Assembly (NCBI GenBank): GCA_001552015.1
Contig: CP010514.1
Span: 510,001 to 542,000 of the forward strand
Direction of reading: 5' to 3'
Length of the DNA stretch: 32,000 nucleotides
DNA from: Candidatus Nanopusillus acidilobi
GTDB taxonomy: Archaea; Nanobdellota; Nanobdellia; Nanobdellales; Nanobdellaceae
The notes beneath the pieces are model-generated. The model saw nothing but the letters and a program-made list of their open reading frames with translations, ran no database searches and was not told where the DNA came from. Made by a program: the position numbers and the translations under genes. Shown here piece after piece: positions 1,456 through 30,283 of this stretch. Numbering within the stretch: the first letter of the stretch is position 1; the number at the start of each line of letters is the position of its first letter.

Positions 1456-1539
1456 GCCGCGGTGCCCGAGCGGACCAAGGGGTATGGCTCGAGACCATAT
1501 CCCCGAAAGGGGGCGTGGGTTCAAATCCCACCCGCGGCG
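1456..1539 (+). tRNA. tRNA-Ser (anticodon CGA), class II with long variable arm, no encoded CCA
   Basis: Hand-folded. Acceptor GCCGCGG/CCGCGGC; anticodon stem TATGG/CCATA with loop CTCGAGA; variable arm CCCC-GAAA-GGGG; T arm GTGGG-TTCAAAT-CCCAC; discriminator G. It is a G+C-rich island in AT-rich DNA. Confidence 0.9.
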
Positions 1540-1569
1540 CTTATAAAAATTTAAATTGAAAAATATAAA

Positions 1570-9435: not shown

Positions 9436-9507
9436 GGGCCCGTAGTCTAGTGGTAGGATTCTGGCCTCGCTAGCCAGAGGTCCCGGGTTCAAATCCCGGC
9501 GGGTCCA
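9436..9507 (+). tRNA. tRNA-Ala (anticodon CGC), no encoded CCA
   Basis: Hand-folded. Acceptor GGGCCCG/CGGGTCC with the G3:U70 alanine identity pair; anticodon stem CTGGC/GCCAG with loop CTCGCTA; T arm CCGGG-TTCAAAT-CCCGG; discriminator A. Confidence 0.9.
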
Positions 9508-10473: not shown

Positions 10474-11178
10474 ATGACTGAAAAACTTTTCTGGCAGGAT
10501 CAATATTTAAAGGAATTTGAAGGAAAAGTTGTTGAAATTAGAGGAAAAGAAGTTATTTTGGATAGAACTGCATTTTATGCAAGAAGCGGTGGTCAACCAG
10601 GAGATACTGGAGAAATAAATGGAATAAAAGTAATAGATACGTATTATGATGATAAAGGAAATATTATACATTTATTAGAAAAAGAACCAAATTTTAAAGC
10701 TGGAGATATTGTTAAAGGAAAAATAGATTGGGAAAGAAGGTATAAATTAATGAGATTACATACAGCTTTACATATATTGTCTGCAGTATTAAATAATATG
10801 TTCGGCAATGTAAAAATTACCGGAAGCCAAATATATGAAGATAAAGCAAGAATAGATTTCGATTTAGATAAATTAGATGATGAATTAGTAAAAAAGATTG
10901 AAGAAAAAGCAAATGAAATTATTAATAAAGATTTACCTGTATATGCAAAATTTGTAAGCAAAGAAGAAGTTGAAAAAATGCCACAATTAAAAAGATTAAT
11001 GGATGAAAAAAGATATGAAAAATATGATGTTCTAAGAGTAGTTGGTATTGGAGATATTGATATACAATTAGATGGGGGAACTCATGTAAAATCTACAAAG
11101 GAAGTGGGAAGAATAAAAATTATTGGAAGAGAAAATAAAGGAAAAAATAATAAAAGGTTAATTATTACAGTTGAATAG
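10474..11178 (+). CDS. alaX: alanyl-tRNA editing protein AlaX (AlaX-M type)
   Basis: 234 aa. N-terminal barrel (LDRTAFYARSGGQPGDTG), the HxxxH motif (RLHTALHIL) and a GGTHV motif. The usual Cys before GGTH is Asp here. Confidence 0.85.
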   Translation: MTEKLFWQDQYLKEFEGKVVEIRGKEVILDRTAFYARSGGQPGDTGEINGIKVIDTYYDDKGNIIHLLEKEPNFKAGDIVKGKIDWERRYKLMRLHTALHILSAVLNNMFGNVKITGSQIYEDKARIDFDLDKLDDELVKKIEEKANEIINKDLPVYAKFVSKEEVEKMPQLKRLMDEKRYEKYDVLRVVGIGDIDIQLDGGTHVKSTKEVGRIKIIGRENKGKNNKRLIITVE

Positions 11179-16729: not shown

Positions 16730-19700
16730 CTAAATTAAAAATATTATTGATCCAATTATTCCTGCTAGTATTAATATATAATTAATATTTTCTGATACAA
16801 CCAATGAAGATTTATTTGAAGGTTCATTTACAATTAAATTATATTGTGCAGTTCCAATATTTTGTCCATTTACATTGAAGTTTAATAATAATGAAGAAGA
16901 TCCAATATATAATGGTAATACACTAAATTGTAATATATATGATTGATTTGGTTGTAATTGATCTATATTTATATTATTTGATGATTGTATTGGAATTTGA
17001 TTATATAATATTTCTGGTACATTTCCCATTTGTTGTAAATTTATTGTAATATTGTTTAATGTTGTATTTCCTATATTTGTTATATTTAATGCTAAAATAT
17101 ATTCTGGATAATCTAAACTAAATTCTAAATTATTTCCAATTGGTCCATATGTAGTATTTATATTAATTGGTTGAATATTTGCTTGTAATTTAATTATACC
17201 ATAATAAATGTATGTTTGAGTTACATTTAAATTAAATATTTCTGTTACACAATTAAATTGTCCATTTGTTAATGCAGAACATACAGTTATATTTCCATTA
17301 TTTGAATATGGTAAACTTAAATTAAATGAATAATAATTTGTATTTAAATTATTATTTGAATATACATTATTGTTATTATAATATACATTTATTGATTGAA
17401 TATTTTGATTTGATCCATTTACTGAAATTGTTGTATTTATATTTTGATTTGTTGCATTTAATATATTAATATCTATAATTGGAACCGTTATTCCTGATGA
17501 AGGTATATTTAAGTTAATTGTATTCGAATTAACACAATTTCCATTATAACATCCTTGTGCATATACTGAATAACTTCCTAGATATGAAACAATACATAAA
17601 GCATTTATATTTTGAAATTGATAATATGAATCGTAACAATATGGAGAATTATTTACATATAATGTATAATTTTGAGAACAACCTGTTATATAGATATTAT
17701 ATGAATTTTGAAAGTTTGAACTTTGCTGAGATGAGATAGAAATTTGCTGACCTACATTATAAGTATATGTTGATGATGCTGAAGATCCTGGTATTGAAGC
17801 TGTTACTGTTACTGAATATGAACCTGGAGATGTTGTTGGAGATGAATTTACATATAATGTTGCTGAACAGGAAGATCCACTAGTAGTACATGATGGATTA
17901 AGTGAACATGTTATACCAGAAGGTGCTGAACAATAAAAATTAACTGTTGTAGATAGTTCATAAGGATTATTTAAATTAACAGTCACTGTGGAATTCGTTT
18001 GAGTACCTGGACAAACTGGAGAAGAACTTGATGGATTTAATTGAACAGATGAGACTGAAACTACAGGCTGTATAGAAATACTAGGCATTATACCATTTGG
18101 GGGATATGATCTAGCAACTACCCATTCTACATATTGATAGGATTCAGAACCATCAGAATCCCCAGCACCTATTTCTAATGTACCATATTGGAAAGGATTA
18201 TAATTTAAATTAGAATATGTATATCCATTATTATTTACATTATATGTATTTAATAATGTTAATGGAACCCATACTTGATTAGAATTATAAATATAATATC
18301 CTGTTTGTGCATAAGATGAATTAACTATTAAATATGAATAAATCGTTCCTCCAGATGTTGGGAAAGGTGTATAATTTAAATATTGATCTGTTACTGCAGA
18401 TTTTAACATAGCCGCTCCACCAGTGGGGGGAGAACCATAATATTCAAATTGTACATATGTAGATAAATTAGATGCTGGTGTAACACCACCACAAGTAGTA
18501 TCCATTCCTCCTGTAATATTTACTCCACCACAGTAACCAGGAATAGTTGCAATTTGATAAGCCTCAATTTGTTGATTTGTATTTCCAAATAATGCTATTA
18601 CATTTGCATCTGAACTCTGAGTATAATACCAAGCTTCTTCAACAATCAAAGGTATTTCTGGAATATTCCAATTATTTGGAGGTAAAATATATGTACCTTC
18701 AGCAGTTTGATTGTTTAACATTTCAATACCGTTTGAAGTTGCTGTAGGAGACCAGGCCGCAGAAGTAACATATCCACTCCATCCATCAAATGTATTATCA
18801 AAATATCCATATACTATAAACACATCTTGTCCATTATCATATCCTGAAATTACCTGAGGAGATGTACCTACATATGGATAATACTGAGAATAATAATTAG
18901 CACTAGTAGGACCTATATACATATATATCGTTACATTACTATTAGCTGATATTCCTGTAGATATATTTATCCACCATACGTCACAGTATACTCCATTATA
19001 ATTTAATTGACCTTCATACCATGAATAGATTTTTGGGATACTCTCAAGAGTTGTTGTAAAGTATATATTTGATCCATTACTATTAATTTCATTAAATAAA
19101 TCAGCATTATTTATATATGCAAAACTATTACCAATATTTATACTTCCATTACATATTGCTATATCTTGTTGGAAAGGTGCTGGCGTTGCTTGAGATTGAG
19201 TATTTGTTATAGTAACTGCATACCAATTAACTTCTGAATCTAAAATAATTGAAGGCATTACACCATTTGGAGGATATGCTCTAGCTAATAAGTATTGAAA
19301 AACAGAACTAGAAGTGCCACTACTATGTGCTGTAACCAGTAATCCAATATATCCTTGTGATGCCATAGATGTAGGAGTTACGCAACTACCTTCTTGAGAT
19401 AAAACCCCTAAAGAACTTCCATAGAATCCACAAGCATAACTTGAATTTGGAAATACTAGTGCAAGAATTGTAGGATATGTTATACTATTACCATTATAAT
19501 TACCTGATGGCGCTATATAACTAGTTCCAGATTGCCATTGAATTGCATAGCCATTTCCATCAGTAACTATCATATCAACTTCTCCATTAGAATCTGATGA
19601 ATCAGTTACCTGATTTTGATAAAGTATTCCAGCTTTAGTCCAACCACTATCTCCAGAATTTCCTGTTAAAGATAAAACTTTTGCTTCTACAATTGCGGGT

Positions 19701-20377
19701 ATTGATATTGGCTGATTATAATACAAATATGTAATCATATAGTAATTATCCCAAAAATCTTGACCATTTGTATTAGATATTGTAACTCCATTATTTACTG
19801 AACACGATCCTGAAGCTCCTGAAGGATTACTCAGTACTGTACAAACTAAATTATTTGGTAAAGTTGCACCTGCGAAATTCCAATAATTATTAAATACGTA
19901 ATTACCATTATCATATTCTCCATAGGTAGGTGATAGCTGGGGAGCTTCTCCCACGTATGGAAAGTATTCGGCGTAATAATTAGCACTACTACTTCCTATA
20001 TACATATATATCGTTACATTACTATTAGCTGATATTCCTGTAGATATATTTATCCACCATACGTCACAGTATACTCCATTATAATTTAATTGACCTTCAT
20101 ACCATGAATATATATTTGGAGAACTTTCGTTTGTAGCAAAGTAAATGTTAGATCCATTAGCATTGATCTCATTAAATAATGTTGGATTATCCAAATAAGC
20201 AAATGATGAGCCAACACTTAAGGATCCATTACATATTGCTATATCTTGTTGGAAAGGTGCAGGAGTTGGCATATTTTGATTATTTGTTATAGTAACTGCA
20301 TACCATCCCTGTGAATATACAAATCTTGGTATTAAAATAACCATTAATCCAAATATAAATATCTTTAATAATTTCAT
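16730..20377 (-). CDS. large secreted surface protein, paralog 1: signal peptide, two DUF2341/ConA-like modules, Cys-rich block, C-terminal module, C-terminal TM anchor
   Basis: 1215 aa. Sec-type signal MKLLKIFIFGLMVILIPRFVYS|QG. The WYAVTITNxQ..PAPFQQDIAICNG...YSWYEGQLNYNGVYCDVWWINIS...TIYMYIG module occurs twice. It has many N-x-S/T sequons and ends in NINYILILAGIIGSIIFLI. Confidence 0.88.
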   Translation of the reverse strand: MKLLKIFIFGLMVILIPRFVYSQGWYAVTITNNQNMPTPAPFQQDIAICNGSLSVGSSFAYLDNPTLFNEINANGSNIYFATNESSPNIYSWYEGQLNYNGVYCDVWWINISTGISANSNVTIYMYIGSSSANYYAEYFPYVGEAPQLSPTYGEYDNGNYVFNNYWNFAGATLPNNLVCTVLSNPSGASGSCSVNNGVTISNTNGQDFWDNYYMITYLYYNQPISIPAIVEAKVLSLTGNSGDSGWTKAGILYQNQVTDSSDSNGEVDMIVTDGNGYAIQWQSGTSYIAPSGNYNGNSITYPTILALVFPNSSYACGFYGSSLGVLSQEGSCVTPTSMASQGYIGLLVTAHSSGTSSSVFQYLLARAYPPNGVMPSIILDSEVNWYAVTITNTQSQATPAPFQQDIAICNGSINIGNSFAYINNADLFNEINSNGSNIYFTTTLESIPKIYSWYEGQLNYNGVYCDVWWINISTGISANSNVTIYMYIGPTSANYYSQYYPYVGTSPQVISGYDNGQDVFIVYGYFDNTFDGWSGYVTSAAWSPTATSNGIEMLNNQTAEGTYILPPNNWNIPEIPLIVEEAWYYTQSSDANVIALFGNTNQQIEAYQIATIPGYCGGVNITGGMDTTCGGVTPASNLSTYVQFEYYGSPPTGGAAMLKSAVTDQYLNYTPFPTSGGTIYSYLIVNSSYAQTGYYIYNSNQVWVPLTLLNTYNVNNNGYTYSNLNYNPFQYGTLEIGAGDSDGSESYQYVEWVVARSYPPNGIMPSISIQPVVSVSSVQLNPSSSSPVCPGTQTNSTVTVNLNNPYELSTTVNFYCSAPSGITCSLNPSCTTSGSSCSATLYVNSSPTTSPGSYSVTVTASIPGSSASSTYTYNVGQQISISSQQSSNFQNSYNIYITGCSQNYTLYVNNSPYCYDSYYQFQNINALCIVSYLGSYSVYAQGCYNGNCVNSNTINLNIPSSGITVPIIDINILNATNQNINTTISVNGSNQNIQSINVYYNNNNVYSNNNLNTNYYSFNLSLPYSNNGNITVCSALTNGQFNCVTEIFNLNVTQTYIYYGIIKLQANIQPININTTYGPIGNNLEFSLDYPEYILALNITNIGNTTLNNITINLQQMGNVPEILYNQIPIQSSNNINIDQLQPNQSYILQFSVLPLYIGSSSLLLNFNVNGQNIGTAQYNLIVNEPSNKSSLVVSENINYILILAGIIGSIIFLI
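17249..17829. repeat. 581-bp block identical to 20520..21100 (C-terminal module of paralogs 1 and 2)
   Basis: Direct line-by-line comparison at an offset of 3271 bp. It also explains the identical spurious 60-aa ORFs at 17557..17739 and 20828..21010. Confidence 0.88.
17842..18138. repeat. 297-bp block identical to 22163..22459 (Cys-rich block plus end of the preceding module)
   Basis: Direct comparison at an offset of 4321 bp. It encodes ...YVEWVVARSYPPNGIMPSISIQPVVSVSSVQLNPSSSSPVCPGTQTNSTVTVNLNNPYELSTTVNFYCSAPSGITCSLNPSCTTSGSSCSATLYVNS. Confidence 0.88.
18913..19028. repeat. 116-bp intragenic block identical to 19995..20110 (between the two modules of paralog 1)
   Basis: Direct comparison at an offset of 1082 bp. 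Both copies encode IYSWYEGQLNYNGVYCDVWWINISTGISANSNVTIYMYIG. Confidence 0.85.
19995..20110. repeat. 116-bp intragenic block identical to 18913..19028
   Basis: Same comparison. Confidence 0.85.
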
Positions 20378-20597
20378 TTTTTATTATAGTATTATTTACT
20401 TATAAAATTTATCATAAAGTATAATTTACATAAATGGAAATTGAAATATTGTATCATCCTACAATTATCCCATAATATGTAACAATTTTTATTATATTAA
20501 AATATAGTAATTGAAGTATACAATTAAATTGTCCATTTGTTAATGCAGAACATACAGTTATATTTCCATTATTTGAATATGGTAAACTTAAATTAAA
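20226..20597. repeat. 372-bp cassette (3' tail of the upstream paralog, 76-bp intergenic promoter, first 152 nt of the next paralog) identical to 23461..23832
   Basis: Direct comparison at an offset of 3235 bp. Confidence 0.88.
20398..20424 (-). promoter_or_regulatory. putative archaeal promoter of paralog 1 (TATA-like TTTTATAA plus a conserved upstream ACTTTATGATAAA element)
   Basis: On the minus strand, TTTTATAA lies 23-30 nt upstream of the ATG. That spacing suggests a leaderless or very short-leader mRNA. A related element is conserved upstream of paralog 3. Confidence 0.4.
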
Positions 20598-23500
20598 TGA
20601 ATAATAATTTGTATTTAAATTATTATTTGAATATACATTATTGTTATTATAATATACATTTATTGATTGAATATTTTGATTTGATCCATTTACTGAAATT
20701 GTTGTATTTATATTTTGATTTGTTGCATTTAATATATTAATATCTATAATTGGAACCGTTATTCCTGATGAAGGTATATTTAAGTTAATTGTATTCGAAT
20801 TAACACAATTTCCATTATAACATCCTTGTGCATATACTGAATAACTTCCTAGATATGAAACAATACATAAAGCATTTATATTTTGAAATTGATAATATGA
20901 ATCGTAACAATATGGAGAATTATTTACATATAATGTATAATTTTGAGAACAACCTGTTATATAGATATTATATGAATTTTGAAAGTTTGAACTTTGCTGA
21001 GATGAGATAGAAATTTGCTGACCTACATTATAAGTATATGTTGATGATGCTGAAGATCCTGGTATTGAAGCTGTTACTGTTACTGAATATGAACCTGGAG
21101 TTAGAGCAGATAGTGATATGGAAATTGAAGGCATTACATCATTTGGGGGTAAAGATCTTAATAAAACCCAATACAAATAAATATTACCACCGTCCTCTTG
21201 TTGTCCTATTGTTATTGGTAAACTAAATGAACCAGGTATTATTGTAGTACTTAATACCTGAGTATAATTTACTAGGAAATATGTATTACTACTAGAAAAT
21301 CCAATACTATACATTGTAGGGACATAACTATAATTTACACTTCCCAAACTACTACTAGTTCCTACTACTAAACTAAATACACCAGTTCCCCCACCCGAAA
21401 ATGCAGCACCATCATTATTTCCTCCAGCTATTATTCCTCCACCTGGTCCCATAAAGTATGTATTCGGAATATTTGCTGCTCCTACTCCCAGAACCATCCA
21501 TTGATAACCTGTATTAGTGTTATAATTTGGAACAGATGCATAAATATCTACTACATTATTTTGTAAATTATAATTATTTGTAGTAGTTATACCATCGTTA
21601 CCGTGGTTAGAACTAAGAGGTAGAATAATTGTATAATCTGTAGAAAATGAAACATTCTTTTGATTACCACATATATATGTCCAACCTGAAGGTAAAGAAC
21701 TTAAACCCCCAAAATTTTGATAATAATTAAATACATAATTTCCATTATCATATTGAGATATACCTAAAACTTGTATTGGAGTACCAACATAAGGATAATA
21801 CTGAGAATAATAATTAGCATTATTTGGTCCTATATACATATATATAGTTATCTTTGAATTAGCAGGTATTCCATTTGGTAAATTTATCCACCAAATATCA
21901 CAATATACTCCATTATAATTTAATTGACCTTCATACCATGAATATATATTTGGTGTACTGTTATAAGGCGTAGCAAAATAAACATTTGATCCATTAATAT
22001 TAATTAAATTAAATAATGTTGCATTATCTATATATGCAAAATTAGGACCAATATTAATATTGCCATTACATATTGCTATATCTTGTTGGAAAGGTGCAGG
22101 AGTTGGAATAGATTGAGTATTTGTTATAAAAATAGGATACCATCCCGATGGTAATTGGATAAATGAATTTACATATAATGTTGCTGAACAGGAAGATCCA
22201 CTAGTAGTACATGATGGATTAAGTGAACATGTTATACCAGAAGGTGCTGAACAATAAAAATTAACTGTTGTAGATAGTTCATAAGGATTATTTAAATTAA
22301 CAGTCACTGTGGAATTCGTTTGAGTACCTGGACAAACTGGAGAAGAACTTGATGGATTTAATTGAACAGATGAGACTGAAACTACAGGCTGTATAGAAAT
22401 ACTAGGCATTATACCATTTGGGGGATATGATCTAGCAACTACCCATTCTACATATTGATCTGTAGATATATCACCAGTGCCATCTCCCGCACCTATTTCT
22501 AATGTACCATATTGGAATGGGTTATAATTTAAGCCTGCATAAGTATATCCAGAGATTCCATTATTTATATTAGTAGTATTATATACATTATAGGTATATG
22601 TATCTAATAATGTTAATGGAACCCATACTTGATAAAGAGAATTATAAATATAATATCCTGTTTGTGCATAAGATGAATTAACTATTAAATATGAATAAAC
22701 TGTTCCTCCATTTGGTGGAAAGTATGTATAATCTAAATATTGATCTGTTACTGCAGATTTTAGCATTGCTGCTTCAGAAGATGGTTGAGAAGCACCAATA
22801 TAATATTCAAATTGTGCAAATGTGGATGAACTAGATGCAGGTGTATCACCACCATAAGTAGATCCAATATTACGTGCATAAATTTGTTGACTTGTATTTC
22901 CAAATAATGCTATTACATTTGCATCTGCTCCCCCATTATTATACCAAGCTTCTTCAACAATTAAAGGTATTTTTGGAATATTCCAATTATTTGGAGGTAA
23001 AATATAAGTACCTCCATATTGTCCATCATTTATCATTTCAATACCGTTTGAAGTTGCTGTAGGAGACCAGGCCGCAGAAGTAACATATCCGCTCCATCCA
23101 TCAAATGTATTATCAAAATATCCATATACTATAAATACATCTTGACCATTATCATATTGCATAGTTCCAATAACTTGCTCATTAGTTCCTACATAAGGAT
23201 AATATTGAGAATAATAGTTTGTATTATAACTTCCAATTGCCATATATATAGTTATCTTTGAATTAGCAGGTATTCCATTTGATAAATTTATCCACCAAAT
23301 ATCACAATATACTCCATTATAATTTAATTGACCTTCATACCATGAATATAAAATATTTCCAGAACTATTTACAAAATATACATTTTGCCCATTTGGATTT
23401 ATTTCATTAAATAAAGCAGCATTATTTATATATGCAAAATTAGGACCTATATTAACATTGCCATTACATATTGCTATATCTTGTTGGAAAGGTGCAGGAG

Positions 23501-23612
23501 TTGGCATATTTTGATTATTTGTTATAGTAACTGCATACCATCCCTGTGAATATACAAATCTTGGTATTAAAATAACCATTAATCCAAATATAAATATCTT
23601 TAATAATTTCAT
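20454..23612 (-). CDS. large secreted surface protein, paralog 2: signal peptide, DUF2341-like module, Cys-rich block, second DUF2341-like module, truncated C-terminal module (no long TM-anchor extension)
   Basis: 1052 aa. The first 51 aa are identical to paralog 1, and it shares 581-bp and 297-bp blocks with paralog 1 at 100% identity. It ends ...TYYGIIVG. Confidence 0.88.
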   Translation of the reverse strand: MKLLKIFIFGLMVILIPRFVYSQGWYAVTITNNQNMPTPAPFQQDIAICNGNVNIGPNFAYINNAALFNEINPNGQNVYFVNSSGNILYSWYEGQLNYNGVYCDIWWINLSNGIPANSKITIYMAIGSYNTNYYSQYYPYVGTNEQVIGTMQYDNGQDVFIVYGYFDNTFDGWSGYVTSAAWSPTATSNGIEMINDGQYGGTYILPPNNWNIPKIPLIVEEAWYNNGGADANVIALFGNTSQQIYARNIGSTYGGDTPASSSSTFAQFEYYIGASQPSSEAAMLKSAVTDQYLDYTYFPPNGGTVYSYLIVNSSYAQTGYYIYNSLYQVWVPLTLLDTYTYNVYNTTNINNGISGYTYAGLNYNPFQYGTLEIGAGDGTGDISTDQYVEWVVARSYPPNGIMPSISIQPVVSVSSVQLNPSSSSPVCPGTQTNSTVTVNLNNPYELSTTVNFYCSAPSGITCSLNPSCTTSGSSCSATLYVNSFIQLPSGWYPIFITNTQSIPTPAPFQQDIAICNGNINIGPNFAYIDNATLFNLININGSNVYFATPYNSTPNIYSWYEGQLNYNGVYCDIWWINLPNGIPANSKITIYMYIGPNNANYYSQYYPYVGTPIQVLGISQYDNGNYVFNYYQNFGGLSSLPSGWTYICGNQKNVSFSTDYTIILPLSSNHGNDGITTTNNYNLQNNVVDIYASVPNYNTNTGYQWMVLGVGAANIPNTYFMGPGGGIIAGGNNDGAAFSGGGTGVFSLVVGTSSSLGSVNYSYVPTMYSIGFSSSNTYFLVNYTQVLSTTIIPGSFSLPITIGQQEDGGNIYLYWVLLRSLPPNDVMPSISISLSALTPGSYSVTVTASIPGSSASSTYTYNVGQQISISSQQSSNFQNSYNIYITGCSQNYTLYVNNSPYCYDSYYQFQNINALCIVSYLGSYSVYAQGCYNGNCVNSNTINLNIPSSGITVPIIDINILNATNQNINTTISVNGSNQNIQSINVYYNNNNVYSNNNLNTNYYSFNLSLPYSNNGNITVCSALTNGQFNCILQLLYFNIIKIVTYYGIIVG
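20520..21100. repeat. 581-bp block identical to 17249..17829
   Basis: Same comparison. Identity ends at ...gaacctggag, after which the two copies diverge. Confidence 0.88.
22163..22459. repeat. 297-bp block identical to 17842..18138
   Basis: Same comparison. Confidence 0.88.
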
Positions 23613-23832
23613 TTTTTATTATAGTATTATTTACTTATAAAATTTATCATAAAGTATAATTTACATAAATGGAAATTGAAATATTGTATCATCCTACAAT
23701 TATCCCATAATATGTAACAATTTTTATTATATTAAAATATAGTAATTGAAGTATACAATTAAATTGTCCATTTGTTAATGCAGAACATACAGTTATATTT
23801 CCATTATTTGAATATGGTAAACTTAAATTAAA
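23461..23832. repeat. 372-bp cassette identical to 20226..20597
   Basis: Same comparison. Confidence 0.88.
23633..23659 (-). promoter_or_regulatory. putative promoter of paralog 2 (identical copy of 20398..20424)
   Basis: It is part of the 372-bp identical cassette. Confidence 0.4.
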
Positions 23833-23930
23833 ATTGTTACTATTATTATAAGACTGAAGATTTACTATATTAAAGATATTAATATATAAATTTGGAATTT
23901 TTATTCCAATAGTTTTATATTTAAATTACT
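23689..23930 (-). pseudogene. decayed C-terminal module of paralog 3, separated from the 23931..25703 ORF by a TGA and a frameshift
   Basis: Manual translation: after the TGA the same frame reads SNLNIK, and the other frame reads ..TIGIKIPNLYINIFNIVNLQSYNNSNNFNLSLPYSNNGNITVCSALTNGQFNCILQLLYFNIIKIVTYYGIIVG*. This parallels NSNTINLNIPSSGITVPIIDINILN...FNLSLPYSNNGNITVC of paralogs 1 and 2. The last 144 nt are identical to the paralog 2 tail. Confidence 0.55.
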
Positions 23931-25703
23931 TCATGTCATATTAGATGAACAAGAATAAGTATAGCTTGTAGAAATATTAGAACTATTTAAATTAATTATT
24001 GTTATTGATGATATTTGATTTATAGGATAAATATAAGAAGTAGATGGAAGTGTTTGAGTAAATGAAGAACCTGTTAATGTTTGAGTTATGGAATAAATAG
24101 ATGAAGAAACGATAGAAGTTGTTGTTGATGTAGAAGTTACTGTAGTTGTTGCTGTTGTATAAACAGTACTAGTAACTGTTTGAGTACTTGTGATTGTTGA
24201 ATAAATTGTTGAAGTAGATGTTAATGTAGTGATTAAAGTAGTATATACAGTACTGATGACTGTATTTGTAGATGTTAATGTGGTTGTTACTGTACTAGTA
24301 ACTGTATTATAAACAGTACTAGTTGTTGTAGATGTAGCAGTAACTGAAGATGTAACAGTTGTTGTTGTAGTAATAGTAGAATAAACAGTTAACGTACTAG
24401 TGATTGTAGATGTAGAAGTCAATGTAGTGGTTACCGTAGTAGTTATTGTTGACGTCTGAGTTACTGTAGAAGTTGAGGTCGTAACTGTAGAAGTTGTTTG
24501 AGTAGATGAGACAGAGACTGGTTGTATAGAAATACTAGGCATTACATCATTTGGAGGATATACTCTAGCTATTACCCATTCTACATATTGATATGATGTT
24601 TCAGAATGAGACATTTCAAGATATCCATCTCCTGCACTTATTTCTAATGTGGGATATTGATAAGGATTATAATTTAAACTAGAATATGTATATCCATTAT
24701 TATTTACTGTATAAGTATCTAATAATGTTAAAGGAGCCCATACTATAGCAAAAGGAGAATAAATATAATATCCTGCTTGTGCATATGTTGAATTAATAAT
24801 TAAATATGAATAAATCGTTCCCCAATATTCATAAAAAGGTATAAAACTTAAAATTTGATTTGTTACTGCAGATTTCAAGTACGTTACACCACTATAATAA
24901 TCAAATTGTACAAATGTAGATAAATTGGATGCGGGAGTATTATCACTACTAGTATTTCCAATAAGACTTACATTAATTTGTTGATTTGTATTTCCAAATA
25001 ATGATATTGCATTTGACTGCCCTCCAAAAGTATACAACCAGGCTTCTTCAACAATTAATGGTATTTTTGGAATATTTCCATTATTTGGAGGTAAAATATA
25101 TGTACCTTCATTTTGCCCATTATTTAGCATTTCAATACCAAGTGGAGTTGCTTTAGGAGACCAAAATCCATAATAATTATATCCACTCCATCCATCAAAT
25201 GTATTATCAAAATATCCATATACTATAAATACATCTTGACCATTATCATATCCTGAAATTACTTGAGGAGAAGCACCTACATAAGGATAATATTGAGAAT
25301 AATAATTTGAAGAGCTATTTCCTATATACATATAAATAGTTACACCTGAATTTGCTGGAATTCCTTGAGGTATATTAATCCACCATACATCACATGTTAC
25401 TCCATTATAATTTAATTGACCTTCATACCATGAATATAAAATATTTCCAGAACTATTTACAAAATAAACATTCTGTCCATTTGAATCTATTTCATTAAAT
25501 AATGTTGCATTATCTATATATGCAAAATTAGGACCTATATTAACATTGCCATTACATATTGCTATATCTTGTTGGAAAGGCGCGGGTGTTGCCTGAGATT
25601 GATTATTTGTTATAGTAACTGCATACCAACCCTGTGAATATATAAATTTAACTACTAATAAGAAAATTATTGATGCAAATATAAATTTCTTTAACAACTT
25701 CAT
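23931..25703 (-). CDS. secreted surface protein, paralog 3: signal peptide, DUF2341/ConA-like module, Thr/Ser/Val-rich stalk
   Basis: 590 aa. Signal MKLLKKFIFASIIFLLVVKFIYS|QG, the same module architecture as paralogs 1 and 2, then about 140 aa of T/S/V low-complexity sequence. Confidence 0.82.
   Translation of the reverse strand: MKLLKKFIFASIIFLLVVKFIYSQGWYAVTITNNQSQATPAPFQQDIAICNGNVNIGPNFAYIDNATLFNEIDSNGQNVYFVNSSGNILYSWYEGQLNYNGVTCDVWWINIPQGIPANSGVTIYMYIGNSSSNYYSQYYPYVGASPQVISGYDNGQDVFIVYGYFDNTFDGWSGYNYYGFWSPKATPLGIEMLNNGQNEGTYILPPNNGNIPKIPLIVEEAWLYTFGGQSNAISLFGNTNQQINVSLIGNTSSDNTPASNLSTFVQFDYYSGVTYLKSAVTNQILSFIPFYEYWGTIYSYLIINSTYAQAGYYIYSPFAIVWAPLTLLDTYTVNNNGYTYSSLNYNPYQYPTLEISAGDGYLEMSHSETSYQYVEWVIARVYPPNDVMPSISIQPVSVSSTQTTSTVTTSTSTVTQTSTITTTVTTTLTSTSTITSTLTVYSTITTTTTVTSSVTATSTTTSTVYNTVTSTVTTTLTSTNTVISTVYTTLITTLTSTSTIYSTITSTQTVTSTVYTTATTTVTSTSTTTSIVSSSIYSITQTLTGSSFTQTLPSTSYIYPINQISSITIINLNSSNISTSYTYSCSSNMT
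24100..24515 (-). repeat. degenerate Thr/Ser/Val-coding low-complexity repeat inside paralog 3
   Basis: It encodes TTSTVTTSTSTVTQTSTITTTVTTTLTSTSTITSTLTVYSTITTTTTVTSS... The plus strand shows reiterated gttgt/agtag/tgtag units. Confidence 0.7.
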
Positions 25704-27135: not shown

Positions 27136-27654
27136 ATGAAATCTATACATATTTACATTGAATATATTTTAATAATCCTATTATCTGTATTTACATTTTA
27201 TTTTGTTTTTACATGGTGGAACAATAATAAAATATATGCAATAAATTTCAATAATCAAAATAAATTTCAATATGATTCAAATTATATAGAAAATGTATTA
27301 AATAATTTAGAAGATGACTTATATTTTAATATAAATTTTAATTTAAATGGATATTATATATATTGTTTAAATAATTTAACATTAATTAAATCAAATAATT
27401 TTTGTAAAACAACATTAAATAATCTAACATATCAGGGGGAATTAATATATTCATATGGAAACTATTATGTATATGATCCAAAGATGAATGGATATTATTT
27501 ATTAGAAAACAATAATAATATTACATTGTATGGATGTTTTGAGAATTATTTATCATTAATAATATTGACAAATAATTGTACAGGAGTATGTTATGGGAAT
27601 TGTAATTTAAATATAGTTAAAAATCAAACATCAATTTATTCAATAATACAATGA
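27136..27654 (+). CDS. small secreted/membrane protein with N-terminal hydrophobic helix (type IV pilin-like or FlaF/FlaG-like candidate), Cys/Asn/Tyr-rich
   Basis: 172 aa. The N-terminus MKSIHIYIEYILIILLSVFTFYFVF is followed by a polar Asn/Tyr-rich domain with 7 Cys. It is the first gene of an operon ending in the filament ATPase and platform genes. Its stop overlaps the next start (ATGA). Confidence 0.45.
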   Translation: MKSIHIYIEYILIILLSVFTFYFVFTWWNNNKIYAINFNNQNKFQYDSNYIENVLNNLEDDLYFNINFNLNGYYIYCLNNLTLIKSNNFCKTTLNNLTYQGELIYSYGNYYVYDPKMNGYYLLENNNNITLYGCFENYLSLIILTNNCTGVCYGNCNLNIVKNQTSIYSIIQ

Positions 27655-27890
27655 AAACTCAATTATTATTAGAACAAGTATTATTTATTTTTTTGGTTTT
27701 ATTATTTATATCTGGTTCTTTAATATTTTATTATAACTATCTAAATAATTTAAATTATAAAAATTCATTAATAAAAAACCAAATATATAATTTAACATTG
27801 GAAGATGCAAAATTAAATAATCAATCAAATTTATTCTATTATCAAGGTTATTACTATCCAGTTGGTACTATAATAATTAAAAATTCATAG
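27651..27890 (+). CDS. small protein with N-terminal hydrophobic helix (pilin-like candidate)
   Basis: 79 aa. MKTQLLLEQVLFIFLVLLFISGSLIF has a short basic N-terminus and then a hydrophobic helix with Glu near its start, reminiscent of a class III signal. Confidence 0.4.
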   Translation: MKTQLLLEQVLFIFLVLLFISGSLIFYYNYLNNLNYKNSLIKNQIYNLTLEDAKLNNQSNLFYYQGYYYPVGTIIIKNS

Positions 27891-27905
27891 ATAGGTTAAA
27901 ATTAT

Positions 27906-29453
27906 ATGAAAAAAATTGTTGCAGAAGAAATATTAAAATATTTTGATAATGAAATAAAAAATGAATCTTTTATACCAAATATAAAATCCGATATTGATAA
28001 ATCAAAAATTGATATAATTTATCCACTAATTGGGAAACTTGCATATGCACATGTTTATTATGATAATATATCTGAAGAACTTGTATATGAATTATTAGAG
28101 CCTGAATTATCTGATGAAGAAAGAATACTAATAGAAAAAATAAAACAATATGTTTTGGATGAAATGTACAAAGATCCTGAAGAATTTCTAAATAAAAATA
28201 AAGAATATGTATTAATAAAGAAATTGGAAGAATTTGTAAATAGATATAAGATAAAAATAAATAGAGATATGTTCATAAAATATTATTATTATTTATGGAG
28301 AGACATGCTGGGATTTGAAAAAATTCATCCATTATTTTATGATATATTTATTGAAGATATTTCATGTGATGGATATGATATACCAATATATGTACATCAT
28401 AATAAATTTGGAATATTAAGGACAAATATAATTTTATCTAGGGATGAATTAGATAAATTTATAGTAAAATTAGCTCAAAAGGCTGGAAAACATATATCAT
28501 ATGCAGAACCAATTCTAGATGCAACATTACCAGATGGATCAAGAATAAATGCAACATACTCACAAGAAATTACTACACAGGGTCCAACATTTACAATAAG
28601 AAAATTCAAAAAACAGATGCTATCATTAGTAGATCTAATAAAATTAAATATGCTAGATTCTGAAATTGCTGCATATTTATGGACATTAGTAGAATATAGA
28701 GCAAATATATTAATTGCAGGTTCTACATCTTCTGGAAAAACTACATTATTAAATTCAATTGCACAATTTATACCACCAGAAGCAAAGGTAATATCTATTG
28801 AAGATACAAGAGAATTACAGTTATATCATGAAAATTGGATTCCTGCAACAACAAGAAAAGGTTTCTTTGTTGGAGATAAATATTATGGGGAAATTGATAT
28901 GTATAAATTACTATCAGAATCTTTTAGACAAAACCCAGATTATGTAATTGTTGGAGAAGTAAGAGGAGAGGAAGCATATGTAATGTTCCAGGGTATGGCT
29001 TCTGGTCATTCTGCACTATCAACTATACATACTGATAGCTGGAGAGCATTAATAAGAAGATTAACAACAGCACCAATTAATTTAACTCCAGATCATATTG
29101 CATTATTAGATGCTGTAATATTTGCAATGAGAGCAAGGAATATTTCTCCATCTGCTAGAAGAATAAGGGAAATTATTGAAGTAGGAAAATATTTAAATGG
29201 AAAGATTGAAAATGAAACAGTCGTAAAATGGAATTTTGAAGATGATACATTTGAGAAAAAAGATCTTGGAAAATATACTGAAGAAACATTAAAATATAGG
29301 GTTGGATCGAATATAAGTTTTAAGGATTCAATAGAAGAGAAAAAAGAGGTAATAGATTATTTAGTAAATAAAAATATAAGAGAAAATAAAAAAATTGCTG
29401 AATATATAAAGCTATATTATACAGATAAAGATTCTTTATTGAAAAAAATATGA
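27906..29453 (+). CDS. type IV filament / secretion ATPase of the FlaI(ArlI)/PilB/GspE-VirB11 superfamily
   Basis: 515 aa. Walker A GSTSSGKTTLLN, Asp box VISIEDTRELQLYHENW, Walker B DYVIVGEVRGEEA, His box GHSALSTIH, and an archaeal FlaI-like N-terminal region (EDISCDG...IYVHH...DATLPDGSRINAT...FTIRKF). Confidence 0.88.
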   Translation: MKKIVAEEILKYFDNEIKNESFIPNIKSDIDKSKIDIIYPLIGKLAYAHVYYDNISEELVYELLEPELSDEERILIEKIKQYVLDEMYKDPEEFLNKNKEYVLIKKLEEFVNRYKIKINRDMFIKYYYYLWRDMLGFEKIHPLFYDIFIEDISCDGYDIPIYVHHNKFGILRTNIILSRDELDKFIVKLAQKAGKHISYAEPILDATLPDGSRINATYSQEITTQGPTFTIRKFKKQMLSLVDLIKLNMLDSEIAAYLWTLVEYRANILIAGSTSSGKTTLLNSIAQFIPPEAKVISIEDTRELQLYHENWIPATTRKGFFVGDKYYGEIDMYKLLSESFRQNPDYVIVGEVRGEEAYVMFQGMASGHSALSTIHTDSWRALIRRLTTAPINLTPDHIALLDAVIFAMRARNISPSARRIREIIEVGKYLNGKIENETVVKWNFEDDTFEKKDLGKYTEETLKYRVGSNISFKDSIEEKKEVIDYLVNKNIRENKKIAEYIKLYYTDKDSLLKKI

Positions 29454-30283
29454 ATTTTTTAGTAAAAAAACTATACCCATATTTTAAGGATAAAAAATAT
29501 GATATATTTTATACGCAATTTAAAACTTCAATTGAAGATTATATAAAAACAACATTAGAATACTCTTTCTTAACTTTTTTCTTATCTTTTCTATCTTTAT
29601 CATTAATATTTATTTTCTATCTAAATTTCTATAATATAGTATTATTTTCTGTAAGTATACTATTTGGGATTATTGTTGGTTTTTTAACATTTATTTATTT
29701 TTATATTTATCCATCATTAGCAAAAGCTGATTATATAAAAGATATAGAAGATAATTTACCATTCTTTGCATTATACTTTTATTCATATTCAGGTTCCCAA
29801 ATGAATATAATAGATATATTTAAATTATTAAATAAAGAAAAAAGATTTGGAGCAATAAATAAAGAAATTTCATATTTATTAATATTGATTAATAATTTTG
29901 GATATGATATTTTATCTGCATTATTAGAATTAGCTCAAAAAACTCCTTCAGAAAAATTCAAGGAATTTCTATATGGATTAATATCAGTAATTAGATCTGG
30001 AGGTTCTTTAAAAGATTTTGCAAGAATATATGCAAAACAAAATTTAGAAGATTATGAATTACAATTAAAGGAATATAATGAAAAAGTTAACTTATGGGTA
30101 ACATTATATGCATTTTTCTTTATAACATTCCCAATGGTATTACTAATTTTAGCATTTCTATTTTCAATTGCATCAGGAAATATGAATATTTTAAATTCAT
30201 TATTATTTTTCTTTATTGTAATTATACCATTTTCATATATTACATACTTATATATGATACATATATATCAACCAAAGATTTAG
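29450..30283 (+). CDS. type IV filament platform protein, FlaJ(ArlJ)/TadC-like, single T2SSF domain
   Basis: 277 aa. It has N-terminal TM helices, one cytoplasmic T2SSF-like domain (EDNLPFFALYFYSYSGSQMN...LLELAQKTPSEKFKEFLYGLISVIRSGGSLKDF) and C-terminal TM helices. Its start overlaps the ATPase stop (ATGA). Confidence 0.72.
   Translation: MNFLVKKLYPYFKDKKYDIFYTQFKTSIEDYIKTTLEYSFLTFFLSFLSLSLIFIFYLNFYNIVLFSVSILFGIIVGFLTFIYFYIYPSLAKADYIKDIEDNLPFFALYFYSYSGSQMNIIDIFKLLNKEKRFGAINKEISYLLILINNFGYDILSALLELAQKTPSEKFKEFLYGLISVIRSGGSLKDFARIYAKQNLEDYELQLKEYNEKVNLWVTLYAFFFITFPMVLLILAFLFSIASGNMNILNSLLFFFIVIIPFSYITYLYMIHIYQPKI

What the first reader, a model, noticed from the sequence alone, without database searches (positions are those of the whole stretch)
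17249..22459. Blocks of 100% nucleotide identity embedded in diverged paralog sequence: signature of recent gene conversion or recombination
Paralogs 1 and 2 share a 581-bp block (17249..17829 = 20520..21100) and a 297-bp block (17842..18138 = 22163..22459) with no mismatch I could find. The flanking homologous sequence, for example the N-terminal modules, is clearly diverged at both DNA and protein level. Paralog 1 also holds a 116-bp perfect repeat between its own two modules (18913..19028 = 19995..20110). Sharp identity boundaries inside otherwise diverged homologs are what gene conversion or cassette exchange produces. Simple ancient duplication would not give this pattern.
Basis: seen in the sequence. 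Interest (0 to 1): 0.7.

Follow-up and report, generated by a model that had tools for sequence, protein, structure and literature searches.

The report
Recombining lectin-like surface-protein gene array
Three neighbouring genes for sugar-binding-like surface proteins of the tiny parasitic archaeon Nanopusillus acidilobi have recently copied stretches of DNA into one another, a familiar way for host-dependent microbes to keep reshuffling their attachment proteins.

Summary
The 581-nt and 297-nt blocks are perfectly identical at the stated coordinates. The 116-nt repeat is real but sits one base lower (18912-19027 = 19995-20110).

The window is from the closed genome of Candidatus Nanopusillus acidilobi. 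The paralogs are Nps_03070, Nps_03075 and Nps_03080, annotated "uncharacterized". They sit between the glycyl-tRNA synthetase and RNase J genes.

Permutation tests, sharp block edges and a sister-strain contig all point to gene conversion after the strains split. That contig has the same gene order. Its orthologous segments are only 87-92% identical to the window's blocks, against 98% for housekeeping genes. It also has its own perfect blocks at other positions.

The proteins are modular: a signal peptide, one or two heads (a DUF2341-like domain plus an L-type-lectin fold), an Ig-like linker, a stalk and an anchor. The perfect blocks fall mainly on the constant parts. Lectin heads are swapped between strains at this same locus. 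The module also occurs in archaeal virus structural proteins. A type IV pilus operon lies next to the array.

This is a new example of a known kind of process. Interest is moderate.

The parts
16730..20377 (-). Paralog 1 (Nps_03070), 1215 aa. Order: Sec signal peptide, N-domain + X lectin core, N-domain + Y lectin core, Ig-like linker, stalk, long C-terminal domain ending in a TM anchor.
   Evidence: ORF. Gene name from the Wurch 2016 supplement. Module map.
20454..23612 (-). Paralog 2 (Nps_03075), 1052 aa. Order: signal peptide, N-domain + Y core, Ig-like linker, N-domain + X' core, stalk, short hydrophobic tail.
   Evidence: It is identical by eye, residue for residue, to P0002, which the source names Nps_03075. 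Blastp of its own modules returns 100% on P0002.
23931..25703 (-). Paralog 3 (Nps_03080), 590 aa. Order: signal peptide, N-domain + Y core, Thr/Ser-rich tail. No C-terminal anchor.
   Evidence: AlphaFold2 model of residues 1-397 with pLDDT 91.3.
17249..17829 (-). 581-nt perfect block, copy in paralog 1 (stalk region, aa 850-1043).
   Evidence: 0 mismatches. 0 of 10,000 shuffles reach it. Residue range.
20520..21100 (-). 581-nt perfect block, copy in paralog 2 (aa 838-1031).
   Evidence: It is 92.0% identical to the L001 ortholog.
17842..18138 (-). 297-nt perfect block, copy in paralog 1. It covers the end of the lectin module (YPPNGIMPS) plus the Ig-like linker (aa 747-846).
22163..22459 (-). 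297-nt perfect block, copy in paralog 2 (aa 385-484).
   Evidence: It is 87.2% identical to the L001 ortholog.
20226..20597 (-). It covers the last 47 codons and the stop codon of paralog 2, the 76-nt intergenic region with a TATA-like box, and codons 1-51 of paralog 1.
23461..23832 (-). 372-nt perfect block, copy 2. It covers the decayed 3'-tail remnant downstream of paralog 3 (23689-23832), the intergenic region, and codons 1-51 of paralog 2.
18912..19027 (-). 116-nt perfect intragenic repeat, copy in the second N-domain of paralog 1 (aa 451-489).
19995..20110 (-). 116-nt perfect intragenic repeat, copy in the first N-domain of paralog 1 (aa 90-128).
21101..22162 (-). Second head of paralog 2 (N-domain + X' core). 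It lies exactly between the two perfect blocks, where paralog 1 has only 12 nt (17830-17841).
   Evidence: The X' core is 94.8% identical to L001.
19274..19927 (-). X lectin core of paralog 1. It has no counterpart in L001 or L002. It is 92% identical at protein level to cores in P0001 and P0013, which sit in other protein frames.
23934..24521 (-). Thr/Ser-rich tail of paralog 3, with a degenerate repeat spaced mostly 36-42 nt apart.
   Evidence: Repeat family D8. Translation.
27136..30283 (+). Neighbouring type IV pilus-like operon (context only). Two small proteins with an N-terminal hydrophobic helix, a PilB/FlaI-type ATPase and a PilC/FlaJ-type platform protein.
   Evidence: Pfam T2SSE and T2SSF matches. 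Sequences.

Best explanation
The region is a tandem array of three paralogous genes of Candidatus Nanopusillus acidilobi. They encode secreted or anchored, probably heavily N-glycosylated, modular surface proteins. Each head is a DUF2341-like beta-sandwich followed by an L-type-lectin (concanavalin-like) jelly roll. The heads sit on a shared chassis of promoter, signal peptide, Ig-like linker, stalk and anchor.

**Shown:**
- Homologous recombination inside the array repeatedly copies stretches from one paralog into another (non-reciprocal gene conversion).
- The most recent tracts cover mainly the chassis parts and are still 100% identical.
- The lectin cores stay diverged.

**Inferred:**
- The homogenised chassis segments act as homology arms. 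These let whole heads be inserted, deleted or replaced.
- That would explain why the same chromosomal site carries one gene with a Y head, one gene with an X' head, or three genes with five heads in closely related genomes.

**Function, inferred and less certain:** the proteins are lectin-like adhesins used for attachment to the crenarchaeal host, possibly together with the adjacent type IV pilus system. The shuffling would diversify host or virus recognition.
For: **Identity of the locus**
- The window's paralog 2 has the same sequence as Nps_03075. The gene table in the Wurch 2016 supplement places Nps_03070, 03075 and 03080 between GlyRS and RNase J.

**Evidence for conversion**
- The perfect blocks are confirmed and highly non-random (0 of 10,000 shuffles for each).
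- Block edges are sharp.
- Sister contig L001 is colinear over paralog 3, paralog 2 and the start of paralog 1. Housekeeping genes are 97.5-98.0% identical, whereas paralog 3 is 92.0%, paralog 2 is 87.9% and the first head of paralog 2 is 79.9%.
- The window's blocks are 100% identical within the genome but 87.2%, 92.0% and 90.4% identical to L001.
- L001 has different perfect blocks: 382 nt, and 167 nt shared three ways.
- In the quartet of paralogs 2 and 3 from both strains, 109 sites support orthology and 16 support within-genome grouping. Thirteen of those 16, and no orthology sites, lie in alignment columns 200-500.
- In the 5' region quartet, the first 400 columns hold 17 within-genome sites and 0 orthology sites.
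- A second complete genome shows the same behaviour. In Nanobdella aerobiophila, a 1439-nt head module is identical over its last 1416 nt in two otherwise unrelated genes.

**Evidence for head swapping**
- The architecture table shows Y, X', X and other cores on the same chassis.
- The syntenic site carries an X'-type single gene in L038 and Y-type single genes in L015 and L016.

**Evidence on fold and function**
- The AlphaFold2 model has pLDDT 91.3.
- Foldseek against the PDB gives ERGIC-53, VIP36 and legume lectins at probability 1.0.
- All three proteins match phrog_7548, at E = 3e-41, 6e-37 and 5e-19.
- tblastn finds a 578-aa ORF of rudiviruses at 31% identity over 93% of the X module.
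- Viral structure matches include the 1311-aa protein that matches NV1_37 in length, and structural proteins of Sulfolobus viruses.
- Type IV pilus genes lie 1.4-4.6 kb away.
- DUF2341 proteins in archaeal pilus loci have been proposed as PilY1-like adhesins (PMC4858521).
- Hypothetical surface proteins of Nanoarchaeota carry the highest non-synonymous SNP densities (PMC6142677).

**Assembly quality**
- The genome is a closed hybrid PacBio and MiSeq assembly of a clonal co-culture (PMC4935971).
Against: - I could not inspect reads. Short-read polishing of a long-read assembly could have erased a few true differences inside near-identical paralog stretches, so 100% may overstate identity slightly.
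- The L001 contig ends 582 nt into its paralog 1. The orthology test for the 297- and 581-nt blocks therefore has only one of the two orthologs, and the direction of transfer cannot be read.
- The single-gene versions of the locus come from short-read MAGs or from a draft assembly. Repeat collapse there cannot be fully excluded, although two samples gave the same contig and three separate genomes agree.
- None of the three proteins has an abundance value in the published proteome table. This may be because they hold only 8-12 Lys+Arg each, which leaves few tryptic peptides.
- No binding or localisation data exist. The Pfam DUF2341 and PKD matches of the window proteins are below the curated cut-offs.
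- A concanavalin-like fold does not prove sugar binding.
Confidence: 0.85

Rival explanations
1. Assembly or polishing artefact. The identical blocks would come from repeat collapse, chimeric joins, or consensus polishing with multi-mapped short reads, not from biology.
For: I could not examine the reads. Related short-read contigs break or end inside this family. L001 ends inside paralog 1, many metagenome contigs are 2-3 kb, and DS.bin.8 contigs share their ends.
Against: - The genome was closed with 8-10 kb PacBio libraries plus 2x300 MiSeq reads from a clonal co-culture. The blocks (116-581 nt) are far shorter than such reads.
- The order paralog 3, remnant, paralog 2, start of paralog 1, including the X' insertion and the short tail, is reproduced in the independent contig L001 and in proteins P0005 and P0001.
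- The flanks are only 58-73% identical, so reads there map uniquely.
- An independently sequenced complete genome, Nanobdella aerobiophila, shows the same kind of block.
Confidence: 0.05
2. A very recent segmental duplication, with module insertion or deletion by unequal crossing-over, made the identical segments. No conversion between pre-existing paralogs would be needed.
For: The array is tandem and direct, and gene number differs between genomes, one versus three. The X' head sits exactly between two perfect blocks, as expected if a head had been inserted into, or deleted from, a recent copy.
Against: - The three-gene layout, the X' insertion, the short tail and the tail remnant after paralog 3 are all present in L001, whose housekeeping genes differ by 2-2.5%. 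The duplications therefore predate the split.
- The blocks carry no differences at all, and they differ by 8-13% from L001.
- The offsets of the blocks differ (3235, 3271, 4321 and 1083 nt), so one duplication cannot explain them.
- L001 has homogenised other segments.

Unequal crossing-over probably does contribute to the copy-number differences. This rival is therefore a partial complement rather than an alternative.
Confidence: 0.07
3. A programmed cassette (antigenic or phase variation) system. One expressed, anchored gene (paralog 1) would be rewritten at high frequency from partial donor copies (paralogs 2 and 3), as in Neisseria pilE/pilS or Borrelia vlsE.
For: - Only paralog 1 has the long C-terminal domain with a TM anchor.
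- Conversion is recurrent and recent.
- Heads differ between strains at the same site.
- Surface proteins are the most polymorphic class in Nanoarchaeota populations.
Against: - All three genes are complete ORFs with their own start codon and signal peptide. Paralogs 1 and 2 have an identical upstream region with a TATA-like box. They are not silent cassettes.
- The C-termini of paralogs 2 and 3 are conserved in other strains (P0001, P0005, P0018, L006). These are maintained products, not decaying donors.
- The recent tracts lie mainly in constant parts rather than in the variable lectin cores.
- No within-culture variants are known.
Confidence: 0.03

Closest known systems
Helicobacter pylori babA/babB/babC adhesin paralogs (from my own knowledge, not tested here)
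   Same: Paralogous genes for lectin-type surface adhesins with near-identical 5' and 3' parts and a divergent, ligand-defining middle. RecA-type gene conversion between loci makes chimeras and changes which head is displayed. Strains differ in which paralog occupies which locus.
   Different: - The bab genes are dispersed, not tandem.
- The bab organism is a bacterium, and its proteins are outer-membrane beta-barrel anchored.
- The proteins here are multi-head and archaeal, with a different fold family (DUF2341-like plus L-type lectin).
- No binding data exist for them.
Programmed cassette systems: Neisseria pilE/pilS, Borrelia vlsE, Mycoplasma genitalium MgPa/MgPar (from my own knowledge)
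   Same: Segmental, non-reciprocal copying between homologous surface-protein sequences, with conserved segments flanking variable ones.
   Different: - Those systems have one expression site and promoter-less, truncated donors, often with dedicated cis elements.
- Here every copy is a full gene with its own start codon and signal peptide, and paralogs 1 and 2 have an identical promoter-like upstream region.
- The youngest tracts cover mainly constant parts.
DUF2341-containing large proteins of archaeal type IV pilus loci, proposed as PilY1-like tip adhesins (Makarova, Koonin and Albers 2016, PMC4858521)
   Same: - A DUF2341-like domain in large secreted archaeal proteins encoded near PilB/PilC-type genes.
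- Relatives carry the same head behind hydrophobic N-termini that look like type IV pilin signals, a reading by eye only.
   Different: - The window proteins have Sec-type signal peptides and score below the Pfam cut-off for DUF2341 (17.3 vs 23.4 bits).
- RNase J lies between the array and the pilus genes.
- The adhesin role is a hypothesis in that paper too.
phrog_7548, the ~580-aa protein of rudiviruses (e.g. SIRV8 ORF44), and NV1_37 of Nanoarchaeotal virus 1
   Same: The whole head (N-domain plus lectin core) is homologous to the C-terminal 350 positions of phrog_7548, at E = 3e-41. It is 31% identical to rudivirus ORFs and 42% identical to NV1_37. The predicted structures match.
   Different: - The viral proteins have other N- or C-terminal parts and are virus-encoded.
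- PHROGs lists their function as unknown.
- From memory, the SIRV2 counterpart (P564) is a minor virion protein. I could not confirm this in the library.

Membership tests
Gene conversion / concerted evolution among paralogs | Identical tracts far longer than the surrounding divergence allows | tested here: met
   Runs of 297, 581, 372 and 116 nt against maxima of 64, 307, 86 and 54 nt in 10,000 shuffles.
Gene conversion / concerted evolution among paralogs | Abrupt tract boundaries inside otherwise diverged homologs | tested here: met
   Identity falls from 100% to 58-73% in the next 200 nt, or homology ends.
Gene conversion / concerted evolution among paralogs | Within the tract, paralogs of one genome group together against their orthologs, while the flanks group by orthology | tested here: met
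   - 5' region: 17 within-genome sites and 0 orthology sites in the first 400 columns, then orthology.
- L001 tract: 13 within-genome and 0 orthology sites in columns 200-500, against 109 orthology sites overall.
- For the 297- and 581-nt blocks only one ortholog is available. It is 87.2% and 92.0% identical.
Gene conversion / concerted evolution among paralogs | Non-reciprocal transfer with an identifiable donor and recipient | not testable with these tools
   This needs the complete paralog 1 ortholog of a sister strain, or experimental lineages. L001 ends 582 nt into that gene.
Gene conversion / concerted evolution among paralogs | The sequence is real, not an assembly product | not testable with these tools
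   Reads were not available. The literature reports a closed PacBio and MiSeq hybrid assembly of a clonal co-culture. The independent contig L001 reproduces the layout.
Programmed cassette variation (pilE/pilS, vlsE type) | A single expression locus plus silent, promoter-less partial donors | tested here: not met
   All three are complete ORFs with a start codon and a signal peptide. Paralogs 1 and 2 have identical upstream regions with a TATA-like box.
Programmed cassette variation (pilE/pilS, vlsE type) | Variants arising at high frequency within a clonal population | not testable with these tools
   This needs deep long-read sequencing of the culture.
Diversity-generating retroelement target | Template and variable repeats differing at adenines, with a reverse transcriptase nearby | tested here: not met
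   The repeats have zero mismatches. No reverse-transcriptase domain appears in the Pfam scans of the 23 window ORFs tested.
DUF2341 (PF10102) domain proteins | A Pfam match above the gathering score | tested here: not met
   Paralog 3 scores 17.3 bits against the 23.4 cut-off. Paralogs 1 and 2 have no DUF2341 match. Many database homologs carry precomputed PF10102, and P0004 scores 93.6 bits through a different head. The relationship is homologous but divergent.
L-type (legume/ERGIC-53) lectin fold | Structural match of a confident model to solved lectin domains | tested here: met
   Model pLDDT 91.3. Foldseek probability 1.0, with target-normalised TM-score 0.55-0.67 to ERGIC-53, VIP36 and legume lectins over about 250 columns.
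L-type (legume/ERGIC-53) lectin fold | Carbohydrate binding | not testable with these tools
   This needs glycan arrays or binding assays. Sequence identity to the lectins is only 8-12%.
phrog_7548 (rudivirus ~580-aa protein) | Significant profile match | tested here: met
   E = 3e-41, 6e-37 and 5e-19, but only to profile positions 236-585 of 591. The homology is at domain level, not full length.
Archaeal S-layer protein | Being the S-layer gene of the organism | tested here: not met
   Wurch 2016 names Nps760 as the predicted S-layer protein. The array genes are Nps_03070 to Nps_03080.

The most novel reading that the evidence does not exclude
The array, and the family as a whole in Nanopusillaceae and Nanobdellaceae, would be a dedicated head-swapping system. 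Conversion-homogenised chassis segments (promoter and signal peptide, the PFQQDIAICNG and YPPNGVMPS module edges, the Ig linker and the stalk) would serve as portable homology arms. Lectin heads would move freely between them: between tandem paralogs, between pilin-like and anchored frames, between strains, and between the cells and their viruses (NAV1, and more distantly the rudiviruses of the crenarchaeal hosts). This would set host range and virus susceptibility of an obligate archaeal ectosymbiont. It would give a concrete, testable genetic basis for host specificity in Nanoarchaeota and DPANN.
Probability: 0.25. Interest if true: 0.7.

Novelty: new member of a known kind. Interest (0 to 1): 0.45.

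Why it matters
Nanoarchaeota are obligate ectosymbionts with genomes of about 0.6 Mb, and how they recognise their hosts is unknown.

This locus evolves roughly five to ten times faster than its housekeeping neighbours. It encodes lectin-fold heads on a conserved stalk and sits next to a type IV pilus operon. It also changes its head type and copy number between close relatives.

That makes Nps_03070 to Nps_03080 concrete candidates for host-attachment or virus-receptor proteins. It also shows that homologous recombination is actively remodelling a highly reduced archaeal genome.

In practice, the repeats explain why short-read MAGs break here (L001 ends inside paralog 1) and why these proteins are absent from tryptic proteomes (8-12 Lys+Arg each).

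The process itself, gene conversion among surface-protein paralogs, is well known from bacteria and parasites. The finding extends a known principle and does not overturn anything.

Tried and rejected
- **Exact-sequence look-ups.** Look-ups of paralog 2, paralog 3, FEN1 and P0002 in the contig index found nothing. The source genome was identified instead by the sequence identity of paralog 2 to Nps_03075 and by the paper's gene table.
- **NCBIfam.** No match for any of the three proteins.
- **IMG/VR viral contigs.** A scan with the module alignment found no relative. The viral link rests on NV1_37, the GenBank phage records, PHROGs and BFVD.
- **The NAV1 paper.** It could not be found in the library. 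A search for SIRV2 ORF564/P564 found only a review that mentions ORF1070. The virion-protein role of the rudivirus homolog is therefore from memory only.
- **DGR.** Rejected: zero mismatches in the repeats and no reverse-transcriptase domain found.
- **S-layer identity.** Rejected: Nps760 is the predicted S-layer protein.
- **Purifying selection as the cause of identity.** Rejected: the same segments differ by 8-13% in the sister strain.
- **The cryo-tomography DPANN paper.** It concerns another organism and says nothing on these proteins.
- **The sigma-70 promoter scanner.** Not used, because archaeal promoters are outside its scope. The TATA-like box was read by eye.

Full report

An exhaustive search for exact repeats of 30 nt or more confirms two blocks exactly as reported:
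- 17249-17829 = 20520-21100 (581 nt, 0 mismatches)
- 17842-18138 = 22163-22459 (297 nt, 0 mismatches)

The 116-nt repeat inside paralog 1 exists, but its first copy is one base lower than reported. The true pair is 18912-19027 = 19995-20110.

A 78-nt stretch is shared three ways: 17249-17326 = 20520-20597 = 23755-23832. No inverted copies exist.

I shuffled the variable columns of each pairwise alignment 10,000 times. The longest identical run never came close to what is seen:

| Observed run (nt) | Longest run in any shuffle (nt) |
|---|---|
| 297 | 64 |
| 581 | 307 |
| 372 | 86 |
| 116 | 54 |

The edges are abrupt. The next 200 homologous nucleotides are 58.5-72.9% identical, or homology stops altogether.

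**2. What the genes are**

All genes lie on the minus strand:
- paralog 1: 16730-20377, 1215 aa
- paralog 2: 20454-23612, 1052 aa
- paralog 3: 23931-25703, 590 aa

The window has 24% G+C and archaeal housekeeping genes, including FEN1, glycyl-tRNA synthetase and RNase J.

Paralog 2 has the same sequence as Nps_03075 of Candidatus Nanopusillus acidilobi. The supplement of Wurch et al. 2016 lists Nps_03070, 03075 and 03080 between GlyRS and RNase J as "Uncharacterized protein". All three are mapped to the single gene Nst1_264 of Nanobsidianus stetteri, and none has a proteome abundance value. The predicted S-layer protein is a different gene, Nps760.

**3. Protein anatomy**

Each protein starts with a Sec-type signal peptide. 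It then carries one or two heads that begin at ...TPAPFQQDIAICNG and end at ...YPPNG(I/V)MPS.

An AlphaFold2 model of the paralog 3 head has pLDDT 91.3. Its last 250 residues or so match L-type lectins (ERGIC-53, VIP36, legume lectins) with Foldseek probability 1.0. The first domain resembles DUF2341, but the Pfam score is below the cut-off.

Three lectin-core types occur in the window: X in paralog 1, X' in paralog 2, and Y in all three.

Behind the heads come several chassis parts:
- a Cys-rich Ig-like linker
- a stalk with a weak PKD match
- one of three endings: a long C-terminal domain with a TM anchor (paralog 1), a short hydrophobic tail (paralog 2) or a Thr/Ser-rich tail (paralog 3)

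The proteins hold 11-31 N-glycosylation sequons and only 8-12 Lys+Arg each. That may explain why tryptic proteomics missed them.

**4. Where the perfect blocks lie**

- The 372-nt block covers the tail of the upstream gene, the 76-nt intergenic region with a TATA-like box about 27 nt before the ATG, and the signal peptide up to the ICNG motif.
- The 297-nt block covers the YPPNGIMPS module end and the Ig-like linker.
- The 581-nt block covers the stalk.
- The 116-nt block is a conserved part of the N-domain in the two heads of paralog 1.

The youngest tracts therefore cover mainly the chassis, while the lectin cores remain 62-71% identical at protein level.

The second head of paralog 2 (1062 nt, 21101-22162) sits exactly between the 297- and 581-nt blocks. 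Paralog 1 has only 12 nt at that position.

**5. Test against a sister strain**

A JGI metagenome contig (L001) is colinear with window 27200 to 19938. It carries RNase J, a paralog 3 ortholog, the same decayed tail remnant, a paralog 2 ortholog with the same head order and short tail, and the start of a paralog 1 ortholog, where the contig ends.

| Segment compared with L001 | Identity |
|---|---|
| Housekeeping genes | 97.5-98.0% |
| Paralog 3, whole gene | 92.0% |
| Paralog 2, whole gene | 87.9% |
| First head of paralog 2 | 79.9% |

The window's perfect blocks are only 87.2% (297 nt), 92.0% (581 nt) and 90.4% (372 nt) identical to the L001 segments. The architecture is thus older than the strain split, and the identity is younger.

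L001 has its own perfect blocks elsewhere. One of 382 nt lies in the N-domains of its paralogs 3 and 2. One of 167 nt is shared three ways. At the 382-nt position the window's paralogs are 83.5% identical.

Quartet site counts localise the tracts:
- For paralogs 3 and 2 in both strains, 109 sites support orthology and 16 support within-genome grouping. Thirteen of those 16, with no orthology sites, fall in columns 200-500.
- For the 5' regions, the first 400 columns hold 17 within-genome and 0 orthology sites. Orthology then takes over.

This is the classical pattern of concerted evolution by gene conversion, acting independently in each lineage.

With 0 differences in 1366 nt of converted sequence, the 95% upper bound on divergence is about 0.2%. 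That is at least tenfold younger than the strain split.

**6. Beyond conversion: heads are exchanged**

In three other genomes the same site between RNase J and GlyRS holds a single gene. Two carry a Y head (L015/L002 and Nst1 L016) and one carries an X'-type head (L038).

Across metagenomic homologs, the same chassis carries Y, X', or other cores. The X core of paralog 1 has no match in L001 or L002. It recurs at 92% protein identity in the second position of a paralog-2-like gene (P0001), and also behind a different N-terminus (P0013).

X' and Y heads also occur behind hydrophobic N-termini that look pilin-like by eye, and in a family that shares its C-terminal part with the virus protein NV1_37.

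In the complete genome of Nanobdella aerobiophila, a whole head is shared by two genes with no other detectable similarity: a 655-aa protein with a pilin-like N-terminus and a 1320-aa protein. The shared block is 1439 nt, and its last 1416 nt are identical. It ends at the YPPNGVMP motif.

**7. Function (inference)**

- The lectin fold is supported by the model and the PDB search.
- The head is homologous to the C-terminal two thirds of a ~580-aa rudivirus protein (phrog_7548) and to NV1_37.
- Structural matches include structural proteins of several Sulfolobales viruses.
- A type IV pilus-like operon lies 1.4-4.6 kb from the array.
- Published work proposes that DUF2341 proteins of archaeal pilus loci are tip adhesins (PMC4858521).
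- Hypothetical surface proteins are the most polymorphic genes in Nanoarchaeota populations (PMC6142677).
- The Acidilobus host surface is labelled by lectins.

Together these make an attachment or recognition role the best guess. I put it at about 0.5-0.6. No experiment supports it yet.

**8. Rivals**

- **Assembly artefact.** Unlikely, because the genome was closed with PacBio 8-10 kb libraries and 2x300 MiSeq reads from a clonal culture, and because L001 reproduces the layout. Polishing could at most have erased a few differences.
- **A single recent duplication.** It cannot explain four different offsets, nor an architecture shared with a strain that is 2% diverged. Unequal crossing-over probably does explain the copy-number differences.
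- **A pilE/pilS-type programmed system.** Not supported, because all copies are complete genes with a start codon and a signal peptide, and the alternative C-termini are conserved in other strains.
- **DGR.** Excluded: zero mismatches in the repeats, and no reverse-transcriptase domain in the 23 window ORFs scanned.

**9. Verdict**

The region is a recombining tandem array of modular, lectin-like surface-protein genes in N. acidilobi.

The mechanism is well known in bacterial and protozoan surface-protein families; H. pylori bab genes are the closest analogue I know. As far as the searched literature shows, it has not been described for this organism or family. It is a new member of a known kind, of moderate interest, with a more interesting head-swapping reading that remains to be tested.

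Noticed in passing
window 27136-30283 (+): A type IV pilus-like operon lies next to the array, separated from it only by RNase J. It has two small proteins with N-terminal hydrophobic helices (172 aa and 79 aa; the latter starts MKTQLLLEQV...), a PilB/FlaI-type ATPase and a PilC/FlaJ-type platform protein. A FlaJ/TadC homologue was singled out for high non-synonymous SNP density by Jarett 2018. I did not check whether it is this gene.
   Followed up: partly
L057 6843-8810 and 9995-13957 (Nanobdella aerobiophila MJ1, complete genome): A complete head module of 1439 nt is shared by two genes, and its last 1416 nt are identical. One gene encodes a 655-aa protein with a pilin-like N-terminus. The other encodes a 1320-aa protein with a repetitive C-terminal region. 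BLAST finds no other similarity between them. This is the same phenomenon in another genus.
   Followed up: partly
window 19240-20377 (paralog 1, first head); L082 3254-4990 (SIRV8 ORF44): The head module is homologous to the C-terminal 350 positions of phrog_7548, a ~580-aa protein of Sulfolobus and Acidianus rudiviruses, at E = 3e-41. It is also homologous to NV1_37 of Nanoarchaeotal virus 1. One of the rudiviruses, SIRV8, comes from Norris Geyser Basin, the same basin as N. acidilobi.
   Followed up: partly
L038 10001-12440, L015 10001-12535, L016 10001-12460: In three related genomes the syntenic site between RNase J and GlyRS holds a single gene instead of three. The head is X'-type in one (RHS.bin.5) and Y-type in the other two (RSNS12, Nst1). 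Collapse in short-read MAGs cannot be fully excluded.
   Followed up: partly
window 23934-24521 (paralog 3 tail; repeats at 24112-24491): A Thr/Ser/Val-rich low-complexity tail with a degenerate repeat spaced mostly 36-42 nt apart. It looks like a mucin-type, possibly O-glycosylated spacer. The C-terminal peptide ...SCSSNMT is conserved in L006.
   Followed up: no
window 16730-25703 (all three proteins): The proteins hold only 8-12 Lys+Arg each and 11-31 N-x-S/T sequons. This is a likely technical reason for their absence from the published tryptic proteome.
   Followed up: yes
P0028, P0031, P0046, P0049, P0050 (metagenome proteins): A family starting MIKKFLKLFGIF... joins a Y- or X'-type head to a long C-terminal part with several hydrophobic segments. 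That part is shared with NV1_37. These may be viral or proviral proteins that carry cellular-type heads.
   Followed up: no
L006 63-899 and 7248-11911: Another strain has a two-gene version of the array (636 aa plus 817 aa) in a different genomic neighbourhood. An ORF further upstream looks by eye like a tyrosine recombinase. This was not tested.
   Followed up: no
window 10474-11178 (+): A 234-aa ORF matches only the C-terminal end of alanyl-tRNA synthetase plus the tRNA_SAD domain. It looks like one half of a split gene, as known in Nanoarchaeota.
   Followed up: no
window 1456-1540 and 9436-9507 (+): tRNA-Ser(CGA) and tRNA-Ala(CGC) genes.
   Followed up: no
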